64,000 nucleotides of DNA from Escherichia phage vB-Eco-KMB39, in sequence record OR539219.1. One strand, given 5' to 3'. Position numbers and translations under genes: made by a program. Shown here one piece after another: positions 1 through 9,991 of the stretch; the first letter of the stretch is position 1, and each line of letters begins with the position of its first letter. The notes beneath the pieces are model-generated. The model was not told the DNA's origin and did no database searches. It was given only the letters and a program-made list of their open reading frames with translations.

Positions 1-502
1 CATCAATAATAGTCAAGATATTCCTTTTATTAAGAATACGCTTATTTTCATATTCTGTTTCAGAGTCAACTATAAGAGTAAAGAAATATTTCTTTCCCTG
101 AAATTTTACCGTAGTATCAATATAGAACAAATTTGACTTTTGTAAATTACGTTTAAACCATGCGTCACTTAAACTATAAACGCCAAGATAATCATAATCG
201 TCATTTAAATAACAAACTGTCCATTCAGGAGAAATGAAATCAGTAAATTCAACATCAAAATCACACGTCAATGAATGAATTGATTCAATACTGTTAATGA
301 GTATTCCAGGACGTATTAAAGACTTTTTACCTCTAGAAAATCTTCCAGAAAGACTTTCATCAGTTTCATATGAAGACCCCCAATAGTAATTACGTCCTTC
401 TGCCATACGTTTAAGAGCATTTAATAATTGGTCTGGAACATCAACTCGTCTTTGGAACTCTTCAAACATTGAATTGAAATCACTTTGCATTTTCATTTTC
501 AT
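1..502 (-). CDS. hypothetical protein, N-terminal part only (gene runs off the window start)
   Basis: Minus-strand frame open from the ATGAAAATGAAAATG cluster at 488-502 (GGAG upstream) to position 1, hand-translated with no stop seen; absent from ORF track because no stop lies in the window. Confidence 0.4.
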   Translation of the reverse strand, partial: MKMKMQSDFNSMFEEFQRRVDVPDQLLNALKRMAEGRNYYWGSSYETDESLSGRFSRGKKSLIRPGILINSIESIHSLTCDFDVEFTDFISPEWTVCYLNDDYDYLGVYSLSDAWFKRNLQKSNLFYIDTTVKFQGKKYFFTLIVDSETEYENKRILNKRNILTIID

Positions 503-522
503 TCCTATTTACTCCAAATATA

Positions 523-538
523 AGGGGCCGAAGCCCCT
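523..538 (-). terminator. GC-rich tetraloop hairpin (GGGGC-CGAA-GCCCC type) downstream of the 544..1137 gene
   Basis: Inverted repeat aggggccgaagcccct read directly; member of a hairpin family recurring at gene ends in this window. Confidence 0.35.
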
Positions 539-543
539 TATCA

Positions 544-1137
544 TTATTTCAGAGAATTAATGTATTCCTGAACATCGGCAGAGGTAGTTTCAACCCCGGA
601 AATATTACCGTTAAAGGTTTCAACTCGAGCAAGAGTATCTTCAATATCAACCTTAGTTAGCGCTGCGATTTCAACTACATCATCAGCAGTACTAATTCCA
701 AGGGCATTTGCCGCACGAGTTTCACGGATATATTCCAATTTAACTGCAAGTTCTTGGCGAGCATCATCTAACTCAACTACTTTCTTGGCGATTTCAATTC
801 GCATTTCAGCATAACCGTCAGCCTTAGTAGTCAGCTGCTCAGCTGTTCGACGATATAGCAAACCGAGTTTAGCGTGCATTGTTACATCTTGACCTTCGGA
901 AAGAAGTTTACGAATTTCACGCTCTTTTGATTCGGCTTGTCGATTCTTTTCGATAACAAGTTCACGAATACGTTTTTCTTCATTAATAGATTTAACAGAA
1001 GCAGTTTTTAGATCTTTAATTTTATCAAGTAGTTTTGCTGCTGCAGCAGTATACTGTTCTTCAACAGATAAATTTTTAGCCATAGCAGAACCAAGTTTAG
1101 TGCGAATAAACTCAACAATTTTCTTCAGTGTGTTCAT
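544..1137 (-). CDS. hypothetical coiled-coil protein (possible PspA/IM30-like fold, unverified)
   Basis: 197-aa ORF, AAGGAAA RBS before ATG at 1137; charged heptad-rich sequence; resemblance to PspA family is by eye only. Confidence 0.6.
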
Positions 1138-1180
1138 AGTATTTCCTTAGGTTGATTAAAAATTAAAATCTGTGAAAGAA

Positions 1181-1711
1181 TTATATCATGCTATTTAAGA
1201 GATGTAAACTATTTTTAATTTTACAAATTCGTTCAGCTTCTTCAACAGCGGCGGCGATAATGCTTTTAGCTATAGGAGTACTAATACTAGTAGCTTTTAC
1301 ACTTAACACGATTTCTTTATCTTTACCAGGCCAACCCCACGATTTTTCACTGTGAGTGCCTTTAATTACAGCAGACACCTCAAGTGAGCATCCATTATCA
1401 TATGTTTTTACATTGACAACCCAAGGTTCACTTTTCTCAATCGGTTTCTCAATCGGTTTATCCCAGTAAATATTAAGAATACGTGGGACATCAAATTTGG
1501 CAGGACAAATCTTAACCGTAAGACCTTCGCTTTCTAGCCAATTAATAAGAGGGCGTTCATACAGGCGACGATGTGGGCTTGGGATTCGACAAGCCTTATG
1601 TCCGTTGCTTGCGGCTTCACTAAGCTGTTCTAATACCTGCTTTTGCATTATTGATAAGATACCATCAAAAGATTTTTCGGAAGTTTCATTCAGTTCGGTA
1701 TAAAGAGACAT
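1181..1711 (-). CDS. hypothetical protein
   Basis: 176-aa ORF starting MSLYTEL, GAGGAAA RBS upstream, early-promoter-like motif immediately upstream. Confidence 0.6.
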   Translation of the reverse strand: MSLYTELNETSEKSFDGILSIMQKQVLEQLSEAASNGHKACRIPSPHRRLYERPLINWLESEGLTVKICPAKFDVPRILNIYWDKPIEKPIEKSEPWVVNVKTYDNGCSLEVSAVIKGTHSEKSWGWPGKDKEIVLSVKATSISTPIAKSIIAAAVEEAERICKIKNSLHLLNSMI

Positions 1712-1736
1712 AACAGTTTCCTCAAATTATAGGCTC

Positions 1737-1766
1737 ATAATATCTCAATCATGAGCCTATGTAAAC
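1737..1766 (-). promoter_or_regulatory. T4-early-type promoter candidate (GTTTAC-N18-TATTAT) for the 1181..1711 gene
   Basis: Minus strand GTTTAC (plus 1761-1766) and TATTAT (plus 1737-1742); a 10-bp inverted repeat ataggctcat/atgagcctat sits in the spacer. Confidence 0.35.
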
Positions 1767-2030
1767 TTATTTCATATTATTAAAATATTCTTCTGCGATT
1801 TCGTCGTTATCATGGTAAACTTTAGAAGACAGTTTAACATAACCTTCAGCAATGAACATGTTAATCACAACCTTTACAGTATACCACTGACCATCTTCAT
1901 TACCCATTACTGCGTAAGTTTCAAACATCGGATGATCAGGACCGATAACTTTAATATCATTCACTGTACGACCGAAATCTTCTGAAACGCATTTCATAAA
2001 GAAGTTGAACAGTTCGCCGTAATTATCCAT
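1767..2030 (-). CDS. hypothetical small protein
   Basis: ORF track gives 1767..2084; start moved to ATG at 2030 (MDNYGELF, GGAGA RBS) because the 2084 ATG lies inside the predicted promoter spacer. Confidence 0.5.
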   Translation of the reverse strand: MDNYGELFNFFMKCVSEDFGRTVNDIKVIGPDHPMFETYAVMGNEDGQWYTVKVVINMFIAEGYVKLSSKVYHDNDEIAEEYFNNMK

Positions 2031-2074
2031 TTCATTCTCCAAGTTGTTTTTCTGTATCAGTAGTTGATAGTTGT

Positions 2075-2104
2075 ATAGTACCATGGAAGAACGGGGATGT
2101 AAAC
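2075..2104 (-). promoter_or_regulatory. T4-early-type promoter candidate (GTTTAC-N18-TACTAT)
   Basis: Minus strand GTTTAC (plus 2099-2104), TACTAT (plus 2075-2080), A/T-rich upstream tract; shares leader motif TATCAACTACTGA with the 6039..6068 copy. Confidence 0.4.
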
Positions 2105-2236
2105 CGTTTTGTGAAAAAATTTTTAAAAAGTTTTAGGGAATTCTAGGGCAGGGATGGGCAATTAAAGGATAGGATAATATATTATAAAGGGTATAAACTA
2201 AATGATGCCTAGAGAGGTCCAGAAAGGCCTAGATAT

Positions 2237-2265
2237 CAAAAAGCCCCAACCTTTCGGTCGGGGCT
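2237..2265 (-). terminator. intrinsic terminator: 10-bp stem, GAAA loop, T-run
   Basis: Minus strand AGCCCCGACC-GAAA-GGTTGGGGCT followed by TTTTT, just downstream of the 2272..2745 gene. Confidence 0.55.
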
Positions 2266-2271
2266 AAAATG

Positions 2272-2745
2272 TTATTTGATTTGTTTAGCAGACCAAATGC
2301 GGTCTTTGATGATTTTTTGGATGTCTTCAACATACTCAAGAGAGTGAGCATGTGGGTTATCTTTGAAACTATAAGCACGAGCTAGCTTTTGGCCTTCGGT
2401 TTTGATTACTAAAAGCTCTTTAAGGATAGCTTCATATTTGGAGATAATTCCTTTAACAATATTTTTCTCTTGTGCGACTTTAGGATCTGCTTTAGGAGCA
2501 GGTTTACCCGAAGCCTTTGCAAAAGCAGCGCCAGTAGCAACTAAACTTTTCCAGGCCATACTAACCGCATTTCCTGTAAATCCTTCTGCTTTCATGTCGC
2601 GAGCAAATTGGAATCGCGATTCGTCAGAAGCATCTTTATAAGAATATTTACCCGCTGCAATGGCTGCTTTTGCGACAGCTTGAATTTCGGTGCTAGATGC
2701 TTCATTTAACACCGCTTCATTTAAAAATTGAGTATATGATTTCAT
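2272..2745 (-). CDS. phage internal protein (head-packaged) with capsid-targeting N-terminus
   Basis: ORF track 2272..2922 trimmed to ATG 2745 (AGGAAA RBS); N-terminus MKSYTQFLNE-AVLNE has the MK(T/S)(Y/F)xxF motif and L-x-E prohead-protease sites; basic Ala/Lys-rich body. Confidence 0.6.
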   Translation of the reverse strand: MKSYTQFLNEAVLNEASSTEIQAVAKAAIAAGKYSYKDASDESRFQFARDMKAEGFTGNAVSMAWKSLVATGAAFAKASGKPAPKADPKVAQEKNIVKGIISKYEAILKELLVIKTEGQKLARAYSFKDNPHAHSLEYVEDIQKIIKDRIWSAKQIK

Positions 2746-2783
2746 CTTATTTCCTGTTTTAATTCGTGGATTTAATATACTAA

Positions 2784-2791
2784 TATTTATA
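2784..2791 (-). promoter_or_regulatory. late promoter TATAAATA
   Basis: Exact TATAAATA on minus strand 39 nt upstream of the internal-protein ATG. Confidence 0.45.
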
Positions 2792-2793
2792 CT

Positions 2794-2822
2794 AAAAAGC
2801 CCCAACCTTTCGGTCGGGGCTA
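2794..2822 (-). terminator. intrinsic terminator, identical copy of the 2237..2265 hairpin
   Basis: Same 24-nt AGCCCCGACC-GAAA-GGTTGGGGCT plus T-run; lies at the 3' end of the tRNA/stable-RNA transcription unit. Confidence 0.55.
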
Positions 2823-2829
2823 AGCCTTG

Positions 2830-3137
2830 CGGCAACCTTGTCGGGGTTCCACCTGCTAAGGCAAGTGTTTGTACGAAACGCCGGGATTCGAACCCGGTTA
2901 TTAAGTAGTTGACGCTACTCAATATTTTTAAAAGGCCATATCTCGACCATATCCGAACGTTCCGTCAAAAACGCTACTCGGCTTATGGCAAAGATATTTC
3001 CTCGAATCGATAATTCGGTGCGCCGTTTCTGCTGTGATATAAGGGGACATTAACAAAACATAAAGATTTATTAATGCCAGTCCTTAAACAGGGAACATCA
3101 GTCCGACGACTTGCCGGTAGCGACCCGGCTTCTTGTC
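2830..3137 (-). ncRNA. candidate small stable RNA(s), tRNA-like 3' module
   Basis: No ORF; minus strand contains CCGGG-TTCGAAT-CCCGG (T-arm-like) with pairing CGGAACG/CGTTTCG but no CCA and no standard cloverleaf; position recalls T4 species 1/2 RNAs (memory only). Confidence 0.25.
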
Positions 3138-3215
3138 TGGTCGAGGCAGTAGGGATCGAACCTACGACCCAGGACTTAGAAGGTCCTTGCTCTTCCTTCT
3201 GAGCTATGCCTCGTA
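3138..3215 (-). tRNA. tRNA-Arg (anticodon TCT)
   Basis: Hand-folded cloverleaf: acceptor CGAGGCA/TGCCTCG, anticodon loop CTTCTAA, T-arm GTAGG-TTCGATC-CCTAC, encoded CCA. Confidence 0.75.
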
Positions 3216-3217
3216 TT

Positions 3218-3292
3218 TGGCGGACGTGATAGGATTCGAACCTATAACCAATCGCTTAACAGGCGATCGCTCTGCCATTGAGCTACACATCC
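3218..3292 (-). tRNA. tRNA-Asn (anticodon GTT)
   Basis: Acceptor GGATGTG/CACGTCC, anticodon stem ATCGC/GCGAT, loop CTGTTAA, T-arm TAGG-TTCGAAT-CCTA, encoded CCA. Confidence 0.7.
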
Positions 3293-3296
3293 AAAT

Positions 3297-3383
3297 TGGT
3301 GGGGAGTGGTGGAGTCGAACCACCCGAGTCGCAATGACAATGAATTTACAGTCCACACCGCTACCCCTACGGGATAACTCCCC
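3297..3383 (-). tRNA. tRNA-Tyr (anticodon GTA), type II with long variable arm
   Basis: 87 nt; acceptor GGGGAGT/ACTCCCC, anticodon loop CTGTAAA, variable arm GTC-ATTGC-GAC, T-arm GGTGG-TTCGACT-CCACC, CCA; anticodon stem needs two G-U pairs. Confidence 0.55.
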
Positions 3384-3392
3384 AAATTAATT

Positions 3393-3467
3393 TGGTGGCC
3401 CTGGGTGGAATTGAACCACCATCTGGCGATTATGAGTCGCTTGCTTGAACCTTCCAGCTACAGGGCC
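3393..3467 (-). tRNA. tRNA with CAT anticodon (Ile-lysidine or Met)
   Basis: Acceptor GGCCCTG/CAGGGCC, anticodon loop CTCATAA, T-arm GGTGG-TTCAATT-CCACC, encoded CCA. Confidence 0.7.
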
Positions 3468-3468
3468 T

Positions 3469-3545
3469 TGGTGCTGATTGACGGAATCGAACCGCCGACA
3501 TCCTCATTACAAGTGAGGTGCTCTACCTACTGAGCTAAATCAGCA
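3469..3545 (-). tRNA. tRNA-Thr (anticodon TGT)
   Basis: Acceptor TGCTGAT/ATCAGCA, anticodon stem CCTCA/TGAGG, loop CTTGTAA, T-arm GGCGG-TTCGATT-CCGTC, CCA. Confidence 0.8.
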
Positions 3546-3549
3546 AAAC

Positions 3550-3639
3550 TGGCGGAGGCGATAGGATTTGAACCTATGAGTCGCCGGAGCGACTGCCGGT
3601 TTTCAAGACCGGTGCATTCAACCACTCTGCCACGCCTCC
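3550..3639 (-). tRNA. tRNA-Ser (anticodon TGA), type II
   Basis: 90 nt; acceptor GGAGGCG/CGCCTCC, anticodon stem CCGGT/ACCGG, loop CTTGAAA, long variable arm, T-arm TAGG-TTCAAAT-CCTA, CCA. Confidence 0.8.
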
Positions 3640-3642
3640 AAA

Positions 3643-3658
3643 TATTTATATATTTATA
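3643..3658 (-). promoter_or_regulatory. two tandem TATAAATA late-promoter motifs just upstream of tRNA-Ser
   Basis: Plus-strand tatttata at 3643-3650 and 3651-3658 (TATAAATA on minus), between segB stop and tRNA-Ser 5' end; very close to the tRNA 5' end, so function uncertain. Confidence 0.3.
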
Positions 3659-4262
3659 TATTGTTAATTTGATTTAGAATTCTTTTTGCTTGAGTATGAC
3701 TTACGCCAATATGCTTAGCATATTTAGATAATTCGCCGCGTTTAGAAAAATCATATAATTTAGAAATTTCTATTCTTCTTTTTCTTTCATCCGCAGAAAC
3801 TTTTGCTTCGTTTGCTTTTGCTATTTTACGTTTAGCTTCTTGAGAATGAGTTTTACCAGCAAAGCCATTCTTCATTAATCCATTTGAAGACCATCCTTTT
3901 AATTTTCCGTTAGAATGTGCCTTTTTAACACCCAATGAAATTAATTCGCGTTGCTGATCTGTCATAGGATAATTATTTATATGATCCCATCCACCTTCAC
4001 CTCCAAGTTTTAAATTATACACATCTGGTCTATTTAAAAACTCTTCTGTGACAATATTTTTCTCGGCTTCAAGCATAGATTCTTTATCATCAAAATACTC
4101 TAATATTTCTTTAGAAAAATTTTCTATACCATATTTATCTTGGGCTCTTTTTAATAATTTACCAGAACCCATATATCCATCATCTAAATTTTCGGTAGAA
4201 TGCACACCAATATAAATTTTATTATTAATTTTATTTGTTATTTTATAAAGATAAAAATGCAT
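3654..4262 (-). CDS. segB: GIY-YIG homing endonuclease embedded in the tRNA cluster
   Basis: GIY-YIG motifs FYLYKITNKINNKIYIG and YMGSG; start moved from 4304 to ATG 4262 to avoid overlapping tRNA-Gly; segB-like position by memory of T4. Confidence 0.75.
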   Translation of the reverse strand: MHFYLYKITNKINNKIYIGVHSTENLDDGYMGSGKLLKRAQDKYGIENFSKEILEYFDDKESMLEAEKNIVTEEFLNRPDVYNLKLGGEGGWDHINNYPMTDQQRELISLGVKKAHSNGKLKGWSSNGLMKNGFAGKTHSQEAKRKIAKANEAKVSADERKRRIEISKLYDFSKRGELSKYAKHIGVSHTQAKRILNQINNI

Positions 4263-4308
4263 ATCAGTCCCTAATAAAGAACTGAGCGTCTCACGACGAG
4301 TCATAAAT

Positions 4309-4382
<74 letters not shown>

Positions 4383-4387
4383 AAATT

Positions 4388-4474
4388 TGGTGCGAGAAGT
4401 GGGACTCGAACCCACAAGGAAATAATTCCGCAGCATTTTAAGTGCTGTGCCTTTACCAATTTGACCATTCTCGC
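4388..4474 (-). tRNA. tRNA-Leu (anticodon TAA), type II
   Basis: 87 nt; anticodon loop CTTAAAA, long variable arm, T-arm GTGGG-TTCGAGT-CCCAC, CCA; matches my recollection of T4 tRNA-Leu. Confidence 0.85.
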
Positions 4475-4475
4475 G

Positions 4476-4548
4476 CTGGGAATAAAGGACTCGAACCTTT
4501 GCATCCTGGAATCAAAATCCAGTGCCTTACCAACTTGGCTAATTCCCA
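4476..4548 (-). tRNA. tRNA-Gln (anticodon TTG), CCA not encoded, 1-nt spacer to tRNA-Leu
   Basis: Acceptor TGGGAAT/ATTCCCA plus discriminator G, anticodon stem CTGGA/TCCAG, loop TTTTGAT, T-arm AAAGG-TTCGAGT-CCTTT. Confidence 0.8.
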
Positions 4549-4634
4549 ATTATTAACAAAGGCTCTTTAGCAAGAACCCTTGATGATAGAGGGTATTAAT
4601 CAGTGCGGTATGAGTTAATAATAACAAATAATTC

Positions 4635-5150
4635 TTAAAGCAAATTAATCATTTTAACGGTCGGCAAAACAATTTCTTCTTCAATATAAGCGAATTCGAC
4701 GCTTTCAACTACACGTAGGAAATCATAGTCATAGTATTCAGAAGCATGACCAAGAATATCAATGAGGCCTTCAGATATCTTATTACCATTCACAAAGAAT
4801 AAGTCAAATACACGTTCTTCGTCTTCTTCGGATTTATTACCAAGGTCAACTTCTATATCAAAGACCTTTTTAATGAATTCTGGATAAAGCTGGTCTGAGA
4901 ACAGTCCTTCAACCAAGTATTCATAAATAAAAAGCGATTGCTCGCTGAACAAGCCATTACCACAATAACGTTCAGCTTTAGTACTAGAATGTCTACTTTT
5001 AAACTTCTTTAAAAGATATTGAAATTGTAAGATTTCATGCTCTTCTACGCCAAACAGTGTTTTAGTTTTATAGTTGTCACCATCATTTTCCCATGTAGTT
5101 ACATCAATCACATAACCCTGCGGAATTGTAGTACCTAAACAAACATTCAT
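4635..5150 (-). CDS. hypothetical strongly acidic protein
   Basis: 171-aa ORF; about one residue in five is D or E; start overlaps the stop of the upstream gene. Confidence 0.6.
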   Translation of the reverse strand: MNVCLGTTIPQGYVIDVTTWENDGDNYKTKTLFGVEEHEILQFQYLLKKFKSRHSSTKAERYCGNGLFSEQSLFIYEYLVEGLFSDQLYPEFIKKVFDIEVDLGNKSEEDEERVFDLFFVNGNKISEGLIDILGHASEYYDYDFLRVVESVEFAYIEEEIVLPTVKMINLL

Positions 5151-5440
5151 TTGCTCACCATATTAATGTAAGTATATTCAATACATTCAAGACCCAAAGG
5201 ATTCTTGAAAATATCATATTCAAGAGGACCTTTTTCCGTTTCAATAAAGAAATCAAAATTTACTGTATTAAATTTACGGTCTTCCTTCACTAATTTAACC
5301 TGAGAAGATGAACGGTCAATGTAAACCTTTTCAACTTCAAAACACGTTAAAATGCCATAATCATCAATCAAGGCTTTAGCTGCTTCTTGATCATATTTAT
5401 ATCCATTTTCAACGGACGATACTTTAGCATAAAGAATCAT
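5147..5440 (-). CDS. hypothetical protein
   Basis: 97-aa ORF tightly packed in the same minus-strand operon. Confidence 0.55.
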   Translation of the reverse strand: MILYAKVSSVENGYKYDQEAAKALIDDYGILTCFEVEKVYIDRSSSQVKLVKEDRKFNTVNFDFFIETEKGPLEYDIFKNPLGLECIEYTYINMVSK

Positions 5441-5442
5441 TA

Positions 5443-5832
5443 TCAGCCTTCATCAACAATAGTATGAGTGTGAGCATTTACAATTTGCCACCAATCAAAG
5501 CGATTAGAACCATACATCGGTTTGTTTTCATTTTCTTTGATAATATCACGGAGTTCATCTTCGGTAGCGGCTTTCGCGATTAAATCAGCATATCCACCAC
5601 GAGGATAATAATTATCACCTGCAAAAAGTAAAAAGTTTGGTTTAATGTTATTGAACTCTTCAAGAGTAATAACTTTTCCTGACGGTTGAACAATCTCTAC
5701 ATATTTATATCCCAATTTTTGAGCAGCATCTACTGCTTCAAGCAAAGTATCATGAGCCCATCCAATTTGACAACCTGGCTTTTCAGATGGATTAGCCTGA
5801 TAATCCGCATACACTTTATACATTCTATTCAC
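5443..5832 (-). CDS. hypothetical protein
   Basis: 129-aa ORF; its start overlaps the upstream small ORF by 8 nt. Confidence 0.55.
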   Translation of the reverse strand: MNRMYKVYADYQANPSEKPGCQIGWAHDTLLEAVDAAQKLGYKYVEIVQPSGKVITLEEFNNIKPNFLLFAGDNYYPRGGYADLIAKAATEDELRDIIKENENKPMYGSNRFDWWQIVNAHTHTIVDEG

Positions 5833-6010
5833 CTTTAGAAATTTTATCCATAACGATAGCGATTAAACCAATTAAAAATGCTACTACAAGTGAAAAAACG
5901 TTTTCTGCTGTAGTCAATAATCCGCATATAAATCCAACAAACATTGAAAAACTAAAAGCAGAAGCAGAAATTGCAATAGCAACATTTCGAATTAATTCAC
6001 AACGTTTCAT
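5825..6010 (-). CDS. small hydrophobic (likely membrane) protein
   Basis: 61 aa with two hydrophobic stretches; GAGGAG RBS and early-type promoter directly upstream. Confidence 0.5.
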   Translation of the reverse strand: MKRCELIRNVAIAISASAFSFSMFVGFICGLLTTAENVFSLVVAFLIGLIAIVMDKISKGE

Positions 6011-6080: not shown

Positions 6081-6338
6081 TTATTTTAAATCTTCTAATC
6101 GTTTCTTCATCTTAGAACCATTTTTAGCAATTTCTCCTGCATCGGAGCATAACGCTAAAAGTGCTTTAACTTTAGTTTGGTCTCCTTTAAAAGACGAAGG
6201 ATCGACCGCAGCAGCAAGTTCTTTAATACGAGAGAAAAGACGCTCAGCTTCAGCTAAAGCCATTCCAAGCTTTACTTCCATACCGTGGGAAGATTCGGTG
6301 ATAGTAGTTTTTGTAGCAAACTCTTTGAAAGTTTTCAT
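6081..6338 (-). CDS. internal protein (IPI-locus type) with capsid-targeting N-terminus
   Basis: 85 aa; N-terminus MKTFKEFATKTTITE with I-T-E protease site; sits next to 57B as ipI does in T4 (memory). Confidence 0.6.
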   Translation of the reverse strand: MKTFKEFATKTTITESSHGMEVKLGMALAEAERLFSRIKELAAAVDPSSFKGDQTKVKALLALCSDAGEIAKNGSKMKKRLEDLK

Positions 6339-6410: not shown

Positions 6411-7095
<685 letters not shown>

Positions 7096-7846: not shown

Positions 7847-7876
7847 ATTATAACACACAAAACTGAAGCATTAAAC
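7847..7876 (-). promoter_or_regulatory. middle-type promoter candidate: MotA box TGCTTCA plus extended -10 TGtTATAAT
   Basis: Minus strand GTTTAATGCTTCA-N10-TATAAT; MotA-box-like element 11 nt upstream of the -10 hexamer. Confidence 0.4.
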
Positions 7877-8401
7877 TTCTGCTATAATTTTTCCATCTTT
7901 TTCTACTTGAAAATAGGTGTAAGGAATCGTAGCTGTACATACTAAAGCCGGGTCTGAATCTTCTGTGTAGCTAAATTCTACTTCAGACAGGTCAGAAACC
8001 CAAGGCTTATAAAAATTTATTGACATCACGATTTCAGTTTTACTATTATCTAAAATGTAAAGCGTAATGTATTCAGGACCTGTTTTTTGGGCAGTATTTT
8101 CGCCTGTAAGATAGTTACTAGTTCCTAGCATCCATTCATACATTCCTATCCATGACTTAAGCTCTTCATCAACTATAAATCTCACGATGAGTGGGTCGTA
8201 CTCAAATGTAACACCTGGACGTTGTGCTCGGCCTAGTCCAAACGGCCCAGTCACGGTATCAGTAACAGGTATCCTAATTCCCGGAATAGGAACTGACTGA
8301 GCATTTAAAGTAAAAGCAGATGTAGTATTACTATGCGGTATTGATACTACAAAGTTAGTTGTATTTGCTTGGTTAAAAATTTGTTGTAGTGCTTGCGACA
8401 T
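7871..8401 (-). CDS. 3: tail completion / sheath stabiliser protein gp3
   Basis: Start moved to ATG 8401 (MSQALQQIF...); synteny 1-3-2-4. Confidence 0.7.
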   Translation of the reverse strand: MSQALQQIFNQANTTNFVVSIPHSNTTSAFTLNAQSVPIPGIRIPVTDTVTGPFGLGRAQRPGVTFEYDPLIVRFIVDEELKSWIGMYEWMLGTSNYLTGENTAQKTGPEYITLYILDNSKTEIVMSINFYKPWVSDLSEVEFSYTEDSDPALVCTATIPYTYFQVEKDGKIIAEV

Positions 8402-8507
8402 ATATTCCTCATAATGCTTCATAAATGTTGGTGGTATAATGGGTCTAAGTCCCTTCCATTCAATTCCAATTAGAACAAACAACAGAAAAGAATGGAAGAT
8501 AATAGAA

Positions 8508-9167
8508 TTAATTTATTAGACTTCTTAAACGAGCAGAAGTCATAAATGGAAATTTTTCTAAAGTTGGCTTTCGCCAATATCTTGGATGACAAGTTGATTT
8601 AAAATCAAGAACAATTTTCTTTGCTTCATCAATAGTGTTAACTCCAAAGTTATCTAACATTATTTTCTTTTCTTTTTCCCACCGTTTATTAGCTAAAGCA
8701 GATTGAAGCTTTTTGTTTTTAAATGTGTCATTTTTTCTAGAATGAGTTGTGCCTTGTGTCGGACTCCATCCTCTTCCTAAAATAAATCCCTCAGGAATTA
8801 TATCTCCATCATGTAATTTTATACATCTTTTACCATTATTATAATATTTTCGTCCAGTTTGTGTATTTGAAATATTATTTACATGTTTTCTTTTTAACCA
8901 ACCATAAACTTTATTATTTCTCCTAACATATTTAGTTGAAACCGTCATTTTTATGGCTGCATAAGATAATTTTAAAGAATTTGGGTGTATTTTTACTAAT
9001 AGCTGATGTGCAACATAATGCTCTTCTGGAGTTAAATCAACCAAGTTAGAAGCATCATTACTACCGCCTAAACATTTCGGAATAATATGATGTCTTTCTT
9101 TATATCCAGTAAGGGCTCTATTGCGAGCCCTATCAATTAGTGAATTATAAATTTTTTCATAATTCAT
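8508..9167 (-). CDS. HNH homing endonuclease with NUMOD-like C-terminal repeats, inserted between genes 3 and 2
   Basis: Motif [29 protein letters not shown]; ATG 9167 overlaps the gp2 stop (ATGA); paralogue of 46927..47619. Confidence 0.75.
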
Positions 9168-9991
9168 CGTACATTGCTCCAAACTTTGTTTGCAGAGAAA
9201 CGTTTTCCTTTGGAGTAGAAGCTTTGGAGTGGCATCAACACAACGTTCGCCCAGTCTTTCGGGGCGATTTCAACAAGGCTACCCATAATATTACCGGGTA
9301 TATATGCCTTAATCATTTGGTCTGCACCCCTAAATCCTTTCACTTGACTCCAATCAATTTTTAATTTCGTTTTATTAGTAATAGTAGGTGTATTTGAATA
9401 TTGCTTTAAAAGCTCTTCTAGAAATTGCTGACGAGCTTTAGGTGGAATATAGTGCAAGTTTAATCCGTACATTAAATTGTGCTTACCTAAACCAAGGTAA
9501 ATTATCAAAGGAAATTTATCCCAGTAAGGAAGAGTTTCCTTGTGTTTAGCATCATAAGCAAAAGCATATATTCGTCCCGGTTGCGGGCGAACAACTTTAT
9601 GTCCTTTTACTTGCTTAATAGTTTCAGCAAACCACTTTCTGGTTTTATTATTAATTGCTGCACCTTCATTACGAATTTTATCACGCAATGTTTGTCTGAA
9701 TGAATTTATCATAAGCAGTTGTCTTTCTTGCTTATTGAGTTTATTCATTGGTTTTGATTCAAGCTTTTGAATCTTTTCAGCCGTTTTAATTCCTGAAGCA
9801 TATTTTGACATTGCTGAAGTAAACGTAGAGTATTTGATTCCTCTTTCTTCAGCAAATTGCTTTCCTGTCATTCCTTTTGCTTTGGCCTTTTTATATTCAA
9901 GACCTATCTGAATCCATTTCTTTTCGTTTAATGATTGCTTAACCTTTGGAACTTGGGGAGTGCTTTCATTAATTATTTGAAAAATAGCCAT
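9164..9991 (-). CDS. 2: DNA end protector protein gp2
   Basis: 275-aa ORF between genes 3 and 4; assigned by synteny and size. Confidence 0.7.

What the first reader, a model, noticed from the sequence alone, without database searches (positions are those of the whole stretch)
2237..2822. Internal-protein gene bracketed by two identical 24-nt terminator hairpins and fed by a late promoter
The same AGCCCCGACC-GAAA-GGTTGGGGCT hairpin plus T-run occurs at 2794-2822 (end of the tRNA unit) and 2237-2265 (end of the gene), with TATAAATA at 2784-2791 between the first hairpin and the ORF. The protein has a capsid-targeting N-terminus with L-N-E protease sites. This looks like a self-contained late-expressed cassette whose flanking repeats could mediate exchange.
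Basis: partly seen in the sequence, partly recalled or inferred. Interest (0 to 1): 0.45.

Follow-up and report, generated by a model that had tools for sequence, protein, structure and literature searches.

The report
Late-expressed internal-protein cassette, T4-like phage
In this T4-like phage, a small late gene for a probable capsid-packaged, injected protein sits between two identical copies of the terminator hairpin that ends the tRNA operon; it is a common, gain-and-loss accessory cassette of an already known kind, although this protein family and this locus are unannotated and phage T4 itself lacks the gene.

Summary
An identical 24-nt hairpin (AGCCCCGACC-GAAA-GGTTGGGGCT plus a T-run, minus strand) occurs at 2242-2265 and 2798-2821. 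It lies inside a 35-nt direct repeat, and no such match is expected by chance. TATAAATA lies at 2784-2791, and the 157-aa ORF is 2272-2745(-).

The window is a Tequatrovirus. The gene lies between rnaC (the end of the tRNA operon) and e.8, which is neither of the two classical internal-protein loci. T4, T2, T6, PST and RB3 have this site empty, with one hairpin. Other relatives carry one gene with two hairpins, or two genes with three.

The protein belongs to phrog_2280 (unknown function). It starts MKSYTQFLNE|AVLNE|A, a capsid-targeting-type leader with two protease-type sites, and this leader is the best-conserved part of the family. dN/dS is 0.05-0.09. A 99%-identical orthologue was detected in phage fD1 virions, in a low-specificity proteome.

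The two flanks give incongruent trees, and the 0/1/2-cassette states are interspersed on them, which indicates recurrent exchange.

The RB32 GenBank record already notes the "34 bp imperfect direct repeat". Cassette shuffling at internal-protein loci has been known since 1994.

Verdict: real, mostly correctly interpreted, and a new member of a known kind. Interest is modest.

The parts
3017..3136 (-). rnaD (species 2 stable RNA), next-to-last gene of the tRNA transcription unit
   Evidence: Alignment to the T4 annotation (T4 rnaD is at L001 3054-3172). No Rfam family matches it.
2872..3010 (-). rnaC (species 1 stable RNA), last gene of the tRNA unit; its 3' end is 50 nt before the hairpin
   Evidence: Alignment to the T4 annotation (T4 rnaC is at L001 2909-3047), 95% mean column identity.
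2789..2823 (-). Upstream copy of the 35-nt direct repeat (TTAGCCCC...GGGGCTTTTT-AG-TAT)
   Evidence: In T4 this is the only copy at the empty site.
2793..2821 (-). Upstream intrinsic-terminator-type hairpin (stem-loop 2798-2821, T5 run 2793-2797). It is the resident terminator of the tRNA/rnaC unit.
   Evidence: Annotators of other records predicted it as a terminator.
2784..2791 (-). T4 late-promoter consensus TATAAATA, 38 nt upstream of the ATG
   Evidence: It is at the same position in 12 of 14 cassette-bearing loci; the other two have AATAAATA. It also follows a different hairpin in Jiaodavirus KEN39.
2750..2755 (-). Shine-Dalgarno-like AGGAAA, 4 nt before the ATG
   Evidence: Read directly from the sequence. 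Conserved as aggaaa in related loci.
2272..2745 (-). CDS of 157 aa, phrog_2280. Probable internal (capsid-packaged, injected) protein. Predicted mature forms are 147 or 142 aa, pI about 9.5.
   Evidence: dN/dS 0.05-0.09. Orthologues are RB32ORF133c, RB68_138 and fD1 g140.
2701..2745 (-). Coding region for the capsid-targeting-type leader MKSYTQFLNE|AVLNE|A, with two L-N-E|A sites (after E10 and E15). The second site arises from a 15-nt tandem duplication, TTAAATGAAGC(N4) x2.
   Evidence: Sequence. Compared with T4 IPII and IPIII, MKTYQEFIAE|A. The motif is conserved in distant family members.
2237..2265 (-). Downstream intrinsic-terminator-type hairpin (stem-loop 2242-2265, T5 run 2237-2241), 6 nt after the stop codon
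2233..2267 (-). Downstream copy of the 35-nt direct repeat
   Evidence: The sequence after it (GATATCTAGGCCTTTCTGG...) is collinear with the sequence after T4's single hairpin.
2075..2103 (-). Sigma-70/early-type promoter-like site (TTTACA-17-TACTAT, with an extended-10 TG) in front of e.8. It marks the downstream boundary of the insertion 'safe harbour'.
   Evidence: a consensus match only. The same sequence is present in T4.
1767..2030 (-). e.8 (87 aa), the conserved downstream neighbour used as an anchor

Best explanation
This is a self-contained late-gene cassette, a 'moron', inserted at the terminator of the T-even tRNA/rnaD/rnaC operon. It lies between that terminator and the early promoter of e.8.

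How it most likely works:
- Transcription of the tRNA unit stops at the first GC-rich hairpin plus U-run.
- Two bases later, a T4 late promoter (TATAAATA) starts a roughly 0.5-kb monocistronic late mRNA, which ends at the second, identical hairpin.
- The product is a 157-aa basic, all-helical protein of family phrog_2280. It carries the 10-residue capsid-targeting leader of T4 internal proteins.
- It is therefore most likely carried into the prohead core, trimmed by the prohead protease after E10 and/or E15, and injected with the DNA.
- By analogy with Ip1, Ip2, Ip3 and Bas37_0260, it would then probably neutralise a host first-line defence such as a type IV restriction enzyme.

Because the cassette ends in a copy of the very hairpin it follows, recombination between hairpin copies deletes, inserts or swaps cassettes. 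This can happen within one genome or between co-infecting phages. It produces the 0-, 1- and 2-gene arrays seen among relatives.

Shown: the sequence elements, their conservation, purifying selection, and the locus polymorphism with junctions at the hairpin. Inferred: termination, late transcription, packaging, processing and injection, the anti-defence role, and the hairpin as the actual crossover site.
For: Elements.

Locus identity: T4 has rnaC, a single identical hairpin, then e.8, with no gene between. T2, T6, PST, RB3, G2540-3 and SHFML-11 are also empty.

Arrays: one gene with two hairpins in the window, RB68, RB32, fD1, L005 and L007. Two genes with three hairpins in sb3, VIPECOOM01, G4500, L006, L008 and L014. 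In more distant phages (L010-L013) a different hairpin plus TATAAATA is repeated before each gene, and the gene order is shuffled. A spread sample of 60 of 682 records gave about 7 empty, about 29 with one cassette and about 10 with two.

The hairpin element occurs 1079 times in 682 genomes. The 40 sampled records hold at most 2 places each, and the positions checked lie at this locus.

The up and down flanks give incongruent NJ trees, with the cassette states interspersed.

Hairpin stem: 93% of cells paired, and 2 pairs with changes on both sides.

Protein: the leader matches T4 IPII and IPIII. The 157-, 187- and 205-aa proteins of this locus are all phrog_2280 but share little beyond the leader at BLASTP level. 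FLxE|[AG] is retained in the most distant members. dN/dS is 0.05-0.09. fD1 g140, 99% identical, was scored PPAP (phage-particle-associated protein) while its neighbours g138 and g139 were not.

Anti-restriction roles of other leader-bearing proteins: PMC12373910, the HIDEN-SEQ preprint, and PMC9391042.

A terminator followed at once by a late promoter is a general design in this window: 5-6 of the 25 TATAAATA sit right after such a hairpin.
Against: - There is no direct evidence for this protein's N-terminal processing or injection.
- The fD1 virion proteome also lists DenV, lysozyme e, NudE and a SegB-like protein, so its specificity is low.
- The classical internal-protein genes sit at two other loci and are flanked by a different element: an early-type TTTACA-N17-TACTAT promoter with an AT-rich stem-loop, and no TATAAATA within 110 nt. 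Arbiol et al. stated that internal-protein genes are absent elsewhere in T-even genomes.
- No fold or family gives a functional hint: AF2 pLDDT is 74, and there are no Foldseek, PDB, Pfam or PADLOC hits.
- The direction of events (insertion or deletion) and the exact crossover point cannot be told from sequence.
- Some downstream hairpins are unrelated in sequence (CCCTATC-TAAAT-GATAGGG). Homology there is limited to about AAAAAGCCC plus the flank.
Confidence: 0.65

Rival explanations
1. The protein is not a packaged or injected internal protein. The N-terminal MK(S/T)YxxFLxE motif would be kept for another reason, for example as a translation-initiation region or as homology shared through recombination. 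The protein would then act inside the infected cell late in infection.
For: All public records seen call it a hypothetical protein, and phrog_2280 has no function. It is not at either named internal-protein locus and has different flanking elements. The only proteomic support comes from a data set that scores about half of all phage proteins as particle-associated.
Against: The motif, including the (L/I)xE|(A/G) cleavage context, persists at the protein level in members whose remaining sequence has diverged to 35-40% identity, and in other genera. Three mutually very divergent proteins at this locus keep it. The gene has a late promoter, matching the time of prohead assembly. fD1 g140 passed the strict threshold, while the adjacent small proteins g138 and g139 were not detected.
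Confidence: 0.15
2. The hairpin repeats are only terminators that were duplicated along with the cassette. Gain, loss and exchange of the cassette would be driven by ordinary homologous recombination in the long conserved flanks, or by co-conversion from double-strand breaks made by the neighbouring homing endonuclease SegB (3654-4304). The 35-nt repeat itself would play no part.
For: SegB (GIY-YIG) lies about 0.9 kb away, inside the tRNA cluster. The flanks are 90-99% identical among T-evens, which gives ample homology. Downstream hairpins of second cassettes are unrelated in sequence. A 35-nt repeat is short for efficient homologous recombination (my own assessment, not from a tool result).
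Against: The empty sites in T4, T2, T6, PST and RB3 are exactly the one-copy product of the repeat, with the breakpoint inside TTTTT-RR-TAT. Copies within one genome are often more alike than orthologous copies between genomes; they are identical in the window, and L010 has a lineage-specific variant repeated. This suggests conversion or recombination between copies. Analogous stem-loop/promoter elements in RB49 and phi1 were shown experimentally to recombine, some within the loop, and to form mini-circles (PMC2839356). T4 deletions often end at GGGC/GCCC inverted repeats, a motif present in this stem (Mosig 1998, as cited). The two mechanisms are not mutually exclusive.
Confidence: 0.3
3. The hairpins act mainly as RNA 3'-end stabilisers or processing signals for the stable RNAs and the late mRNA, not as efficient transcription terminators.
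For: rnaC and the tRNAs are processed from longer precursors (established T4 knowledge, from memory). A strong GNRA-capped stem would protect 3' ends. No termination assay is available.
Against: The anatomy is the textbook intrinsic terminator: a 10-bp GC-rich stem, a tetraloop and U5. A U-run follows the stem on the minus strand only. The two roles are compatible.
Confidence: 0.1

Closest known systems
T-even internal proteins (T4 Ip1/IPI, Ip2, Ip3; Ip4-Ip9 and others in relatives) and their two hyper-polymorphic loci (Repoila et al. 1994, EMBO J 13:4181; cited)
   Same: These are small, non-essential, highly variable genes. They share an N-terminal capsid-targeting leader of about 10 residues ending in (L/I)xE|A. 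Gene number differs between close relatives. Each gene is bracketed by conserved short repeats made of regulatory signals. RB32's annotators noted direct repeats both at Ip7/Ip9 (43 bp) and at this ORF (34 bp).
   Different: This is a third locus (rnaC to e.8), not ipI (57B to tRNA.4) or ipII/ipIII (e to denV). The flanking element is a GC-rich intrinsic terminator plus a late promoter, not an early-type promoter with an AT-rich stem-loop. The family (phrog_2280) is not annotated as an internal protein anywhere I looked. The protein (157-205 aa) shares no similarity with named internal proteins beyond the leader.
PeSL / PmSL mobile regulatory cassettes of T4-type phages (Arbiol et al. 2010, PMC2839356; Comeau et al. 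2014, PMC4122927)
   Same: A composite terminator stem-loop plus promoter is repeated on both sides of an accessory ORF. Relatives lacking the ORF have a single element at the same place. The proposed mechanism is recombination between the elements.
   Different: PeSL and PmSL carry sigma-70-like early or Mot-dependent middle promoters and are spread through hyperplastic regions. Here the promoter is the late TATAAATA, and the repeated hairpin is confined to one locus, with at most two copies in each genome sampled. Mini-circles and promoter or terminator activity were not tested here.
Morons of lambdoid phages (Hendrix and colleagues; described)
   Same: A single gene with its own promoter and terminator is inserted between two genes that are adjacent in related phages.
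   Different: Morons are not thought to move by means of their regulatory sequences, and they lack conserved flanking repeats. This cassette is bracketed by a duplicated terminator.
Terminator of the T4 tRNA / species 1 RNA transcription unit
   Same: The upstream hairpin is the same sequence, at the same position relative to rnaC, as in T4.
   Different: In this window it is duplicated, and a late gene lies between the two copies.

Membership tests
T4-type internal (capsid-packaged, injected) proteins | N-terminal capsid-targeting sequence of about 10 residues resembling MKTYQEFIAE (Mullaney & Black 1996, cited) | tested here: met
   MKSYTQFLNE against T4 IPII and IPIII MKTYQEFIAE: M, K, Y, F and E are identical, and S/T and L/I are conservative. 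It is the only match to the motif in six-frame translations of the 64-kb window.
T4-type internal (capsid-packaged, injected) proteins | Prohead-protease (gp21) cleavage context (L/I)-x-E|(A/G/S) at the end of the leader (consensus recalled from the T4 literature) | tested here: met
   L8-N-E10|A11 and L13-N-E15|A16. FLxE|[AG] is conserved in distant family members. This is a sequence-level test only.
T4-type internal (capsid-packaged, injected) proteins | Physical presence in purified virions | tested here: inconclusive
   The 99%-identical fD1 g140 is listed as PPAP in Table S3 of PMC8309999. The same table lists DenV, lysozyme, NudE and a SegB-like protein as PPAP.
T4-type internal (capsid-packaged, injected) proteins | Removal of the leader in mature heads and injection into the host with the DNA | not testable with these tools
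   This needs N-terminal or semi-tryptic mass spectrometry and injection assays. The public data set PXD026812 could be re-searched.
T4-type internal (capsid-packaged, injected) proteins | Non-essential, with presence varying among close relatives | tested here: met
   Absent from T4, T2, T6, PST and RB3. Present in 511 of about 680-750 related records. Paralogue number is 0 to 2.
T4-type internal (capsid-packaged, injected) proteins | Location in one of the two described internal-protein loci, with early-promoter/AT-rich stem-loop flanks (a typical feature, not strictly defining) | tested here: not met
   The gene lies between rnaC and e.8 and is flanked by a GC-rich terminator plus a late promoter.
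PeSL-type mobile regulatory cassettes | Composite stem-loop plus sigma-70-like EARLY promoter repeated in intergenic regions | tested here: not met
   A stem-loop is present, but the adjoining promoter is the late TATAAATA. No -35/-10 pair lies between hairpin and ATG.
PeSL-type mobile regulatory cassettes | The elements flank an accessory ORF that is an indel between close relatives, with one element left at the empty site | tested here: met
   T4-type empty sites keep exactly one hairpin. Arrays of n genes have n+1 hairpins.
PeSL-type mobile regulatory cassettes | Recombination between the elements demonstrated (mini-circles, mapped crossovers) | not testable with these tools
   Only indirect support: breakpoints fall within TTTTT-RR-TAT, and the flank trees are incongruent.
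Intrinsic (rho-independent) terminator | GC-rich stem, short loop, and a U-run of at least 4-5 immediately 3' of the stem | tested here: met
   10-bp stem with 7 G-C pairs, GAAA loop, U5, about -20 kcal/mol, for both copies. The stem is conserved through wobble and compensatory changes.
Intrinsic (rho-independent) terminator | Measured termination of transcription | not testable with these tools
   Only annotators' predictions exist in MK327944, MK327945 and NC_024794.
T4 late promoter | TATAAATA at a suitable distance upstream of a late gene | tested here: met
   An exact match lies 38 nt before the ATG. The ATAAATA core is kept in all 14 cassette-bearing loci. The 187-aa paralogue has AATAAATA, also 38 nt before its ATG.
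T4 late promoter | gp55/gp33/gp45-dependent initiation late in infection | not testable with these tools
   No transcript data are available for a carrier phage.
Moron | Promoter-gene-terminator unit inserted between genes that are adjacent in relatives | tested here: met
   The rnaC terminator and the e.8 promoter are contiguous in T4. Here they are separated by 556 bp of promoter, gene and terminator.

The most novel reading that the evidence does not exclude
phrog_2280 is an unrecognised family of injected anti-defence proteins encoded at a third internal-protein locus of T-even phages (rnaC to e.8). Earlier work, centred on T2, T4 and T6, missed this locus because those phages have it empty. 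Its divergent paralogues (157, 187 and 205 aa) would each disarm a different host first-line defence, for example GmrSD or McrBC-type type IV restriction variants. Their gain and loss through the duplicated terminator hairpin would tune host range.
Probability: 0.3. Interest if true: 0.55.

Novelty: new member of a known kind. Interest (0 to 1): 0.3.

Why it matters
Every T4 internal protein tested so far (Ip1, Ip2, Ip3, and Bas37_0260) turned out to be a specific inhibitor of a type IV restriction system. Each new leader-bearing family is therefore a ready-made candidate anti-defence factor and host-range determinant for therapeutic T4-like phages.

This family is carried by about 500 sequenced phages, yet it is labelled "hypothetical" in every record seen. 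It also sits outside the two loci to which internal-protein genes were thought to be confined.

The practical gain is an annotation and a short list of testable genes. The concept (cassettes shuffled through repeated regulatory signals) is not new.

Tried and rejected
- Rfam, permissive search on 1-6000: only tRNAs. Nothing for the hairpins, rnaC or rnaD.
- Pfam, PADLOC and a PDB profile search with the protein or family: no meaningful hit. The one PDB hit is a 22-residue stretch of a designed PPR protein.
- AlphaFold2 on a 9-sequence alignment: all-helical, pLDDT 74, pTM 0.41. Foldseek against PDB and BFVD returned only its own orthologue. The fold gives no functional lead.
- Exhaustive HMMER profile search of 1.84 billion representatives: only 13 clusters, all short phage-like proteins. 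The family is narrow, and no annotated remote relative was found.
- I considered that PST 'IpIV' (also 157 aa) was the same cassette at the ipII locus. Rejected: the sequence is unrelated beyond the leader.
- I first assumed from memory that this was the ipI locus. Rejected after reading the T4 annotation. The window's real ipI-locus gene is 6081-6338(-), which is Ip5-like.
- I considered that a hairpin followed by a late promoter might be a special new class of element. Tempered: 5-6 of the 25 late promoters in the window sit right after a GC-rich hairpin, so the junction is a general T4 design.
- Repoila 1994 (PMC395341) and Miller 2003 (PMC150520) are not held. Their content is cited only through other papers.
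- Two literature searches were malformed or too broad.
Full report
**What is in the sequence**

All relevant genes in window 1-6000 are on the minus strand. Read 5' to 3' on that strand, the order is:
- a tRNA cluster interrupted by a GIY-YIG segB gene (3654-4304);
- tRNA-Arg (3138-3213);
- rnaD (about 3017-3136) and rnaC (about 2872-3010), placed by alignment to the T4 annotation;
- the hairpin AGCCCCGACC-GAAA-GGTTGGGGCT (2798-2821) with a T5 run (2793-2797);
- two bases later, TATAAATA (2784-2791);
- 38 nt further on, after an AGGAAA Shine-Dalgarno-like site, the ATG of a 157-aa ORF (2272-2745);
- six bases after its stop codon, the same 24-mer again (2242-2265) with a T5 run (2237-2241);
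- an early-type promoter-like site (2075-2103) and e.8 (1767-2030).

The 24-mer occurs exactly twice in 64 kb, even with 3 mismatches allowed, against 0 in 100 shuffles. It is part of a 35-nt direct repeat. Each copy folds at about -20 kcal/mol, z about -3.7, and passes the terminator scan.

**Where this is in the genome**

The window is a mosaic Tequatrovirus. Its best public matches are RB33 and RB32, at 96.5% identity over 94% of the first 12 kb.

I first assumed this was the ipI locus. The T4 annotation shows it is not. In T4 the order is 57B, ipI, tRNA.4-.2, the tRNAs, rnaD, rnaC, then e.8, and nothing is annotated between rnaC and e.8. T4 carries the identical hairpin once at that place.

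The window and T4 are collinear through rnaD, rnaC, the hairpin and the T-run. They diverge inside TTTTT-RR-TAT. The sequence after the window's second hairpin then rejoins the T4 sequence. The window therefore equals T4 plus 556 bp of late promoter, gene and a second hairpin copy.

The window's real ipI-locus gene is the Ip5-like ORF at 6081-6338.

**The locus across relatives**

- Empty site, one hairpin: T4, T2, T6, PST, RB3, G2540-3 and SHFML-11.
- One gene, two hairpins: the window, RB68, RB32, fD1, L005 and L007.
- Two genes, three hairpins: sb3, VIPECOOM01, G4500, L006, L008 and L014. The second gene encodes 187 aa starting MKTYAEFLTEA. The third hairpin is unrelated in sequence (CCCTATC-TAAAT-GATAGGG).
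- More distant contigs (L010-L013): a lineage-specific hairpin (GGCCCTTCC-GAAA-GGTTGGGCC) plus TATAAATA is repeated before each of two genes. A 184-aa membrane-like ORF changes place relative to the leader-bearing gene.

In a spread sample of 60 of 682 matching records, about 7 were empty, about 29 had one cassette and about 10 had two. The rest matched only in rnaC.

tblastn finds the 157-aa family in 511 phage records and the 187-aa protein in 165.

The hairpin element gives 1079 places in 682 genomes. The 40 sampled records hold at most two places each, and the positions checked lie at this locus.

NJ trees of the upstream flank (rnaD/rnaC) and the downstream flank (intergenic plus e.8) are incongruent. 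The 0-, 1- and 2-cassette states are interspersed on both trees. This indicates repeated exchange across the locus.

Two Klebsiella phages of other genera place their homologue just downstream of a tRNA cluster. One of them (KEN39) has the junction hairpin-TTTTTAG-TATAAATA with a different stem, AGCCCCGTC-TTCG-GACGGGGCT.

**The hairpin**

Ten distinct variants keep 93% of stem cells paired. Two pairs show changes on both sides, and several show G-U wobble changes.

The anatomy is that of an intrinsic terminator. A T-run follows the stem on the minus strand only.

Annotators of three public records predicted it as a terminator. Termination has not been measured for it, as far as I could find. 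That it terminates the T4 tRNA unit is my recollection of the older T4 literature, which I could not read here.

**The promoter**

TATAAATA is the T4 late-promoter consensus (established knowledge). The window has 25 copies against 10 expected. The ATAAATA core is kept upstream of every leader-bearing gene at this locus.

A GC-rich hairpin plus T-run immediately followed by TATAAATA also occurs at 5-6 other late promoters in the window. The junction is therefore ordinary T4 design. What is particular here is that the same hairpin is repeated at both ends of the gene.

**The protein**

- No Pfam or PADLOC hit; family phrog_2280, function unknown.
- It is a real gene. Orthologues 75-100% identical are widespread, and dN/dS is 0.05-0.09.
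- The N-terminus MKSYTQFLNE|AVLNE|A resembles the leaders of T4 IPII and IPIII (MKTYQEFIAE|A).
- It contains two L-x-E|A contexts of the kind cut by the prohead protease (consensus from memory). The second comes from a 15-nt tandem duplication.
- In the family alignment, and in the most distant members recovered by an exhaustive profile search (only 13 clusters among 1.84 billion representatives), FLxE|[AG] at residues 7-11 is retained while the rest diverges.
- The 157-, 187- and 205-aa proteins of this locus all match phrog_2280 over their full length, yet at BLASTP level they share little beyond the leader. This is the pattern described for internal proteins.
- The predicted mature protein is basic (pI about 9.5) and all-helical. 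It has a conserved N-terminal domain, a Lys/Pro/Ala-rich linker and a long C-terminal helical hairpin. The model is of moderate confidence, and no structural neighbour was found.

**Experimental hint**

Phage fD1 gene g140 differs from the window protein by two residues. In the LC-MS/MS analysis of purified fD1 virions it is listed as a particle-associated protein at the strict threshold, while the adjacent g138 and g139 (e.8) are not (PMC8309999 Table S3).

The same table marks DenV, lysozyme, NudE and a SegB-like protein as particle-associated. This is supportive evidence, not proof.

**What is already known**

- Repoila et al. 1994 described two hyper-polymorphic internal-protein loci whose ORFs share the leader and are bracketed by conserved regulatory sequences (as summarised).
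- Arbiol et al. 2010 and Comeau et al. 2014 generalised this to PeSL and PmSL elements, which combine an early or middle promoter with a stem-loop. They showed recombination between such elements and mini-circle formation.
- In my comparison, the named internal-protein genes (T4 ipI, ipII and ipIII; PST ipV and ipVI; T2 ip7) are flanked by TTTACA-N17-TACTAT promoters that enclose or adjoin an AT-rich stem-loop (PST ipIV shows only part of this element), and none of them has a TATAAATA within 110 nt. That differs from the element here.
- The RB32 GenBank record (2006) annotates the orthologue RB32ORF133c as [quoted passage not shown]. The same record names Ip5, Ip7 and Ip9 at the ipI locus. The repeat is thus on public record, but the internal-protein-like nature of the ORF is not.
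- Ip1, Ip2 and Ip3 each inhibit a distinct GmrSD-type type IV restriction enzyme, and Bas37_0260 inhibits McrBC.

**Conclusion**

The feature is a late-expressed moron-like cassette for a probable internal protein, inserted at, and ending in a copy of, the tRNA-operon terminator. The duplicated terminator offers a simple route to loss, gain and swapping.

It belongs to a known kind: internal-protein genes shuffled through repeated regulatory signals. It adds a third locus, a different flanking element and an unannotated family.

I rate it a new member of a known kind, with modest interest. Its main value is as a candidate anti-defence gene family that could be tested directly.

Noticed in passing
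L004 (VIPECOOM01) middle hairpin; L008 third hairpin: Hairpin loops are inverted relative to other phages while the stems are kept. GAAA becomes TTTC, with a perfectly palindromic stem AGCCCCGACC/GGTCGGGGCT. TAAAT becomes ATTTA in CCCTATC...GATAGGG. This looks like flip-flop inversion by recombination within the stem.
   Followed up: no
window 8508-9182 (-): A 224-aa ORF lies between gene 3 (7871-8482) and gene 2 (9164-9991). It has an HNH-like motif ([10 protein letters not shown]...N...LTPEEH) but no Pfam hit. T4 has no gene there. RB32 and RB33 list a 'putative site-specific intron-like DNA endonuclease' among the features under the 12-kb match; I did not check that it is at this position.
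   Followed up: partly
window 6081-6338 (-) and 6411-6866 (-): The classical ipI locus here holds a single Ip5-like gene (85 aa, MKTFKEFATKTTITE|S, phrog_3499). Next to it is 57B, which matches Pfam Acb1, the anti-CBASS nuclease.
   Followed up: partly
window 3643-3658 (-): Two abutting TATAAATA motifs lie between the segB stop codon and tRNA-Ser. They could be late promoters feeding the distal tRNA sub-cluster and rnaC/rnaD.
   Followed up: no
window 1181-1711 (-) and 4635-5150 (-): Two other accessory ORFs differ from T4. A 176-aa gene (phrog_6869) replaces e.7, and a 171-aa ORF sits upstream of tRNA.2. RB32 annotates both as similar to RB69 ORFs.
   Followed up: no
L010-L013, between rnaC and e.8: A 184-aa ORF with a hydrophobic N-terminus (MKLLKYLSWILLVPLDF..., phrog_2143) and no capsid-targeting leader shares the cassette array. 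It lies before the leader-bearing gene in L010 and L012, and after it in L011 and probably L013 (the ORF caller there gave a longer ORF over that stretch).
   Followed up: partly
L023 (G4500) 1897-1990: The annotators' tRNA finder called the rnaC region a 94-nt 'tRNA-Lys(ttt)'. This suggests tRNA-like features in species 1 RNA. ARAGORN did not call it in the window, and Rfam has no family for rnaC or rnaD.
   Followed up: no
window 520-541: Another GC-rich GCCC/GGGC-type hairpin (ATAAGGGGCC-GAAG-CCCCTTAT) lies directly after the e.6 stop codon. Its stem motif is the same type that Mosig 1998 linked to T4 deletion endpoints.
   Followed up: no
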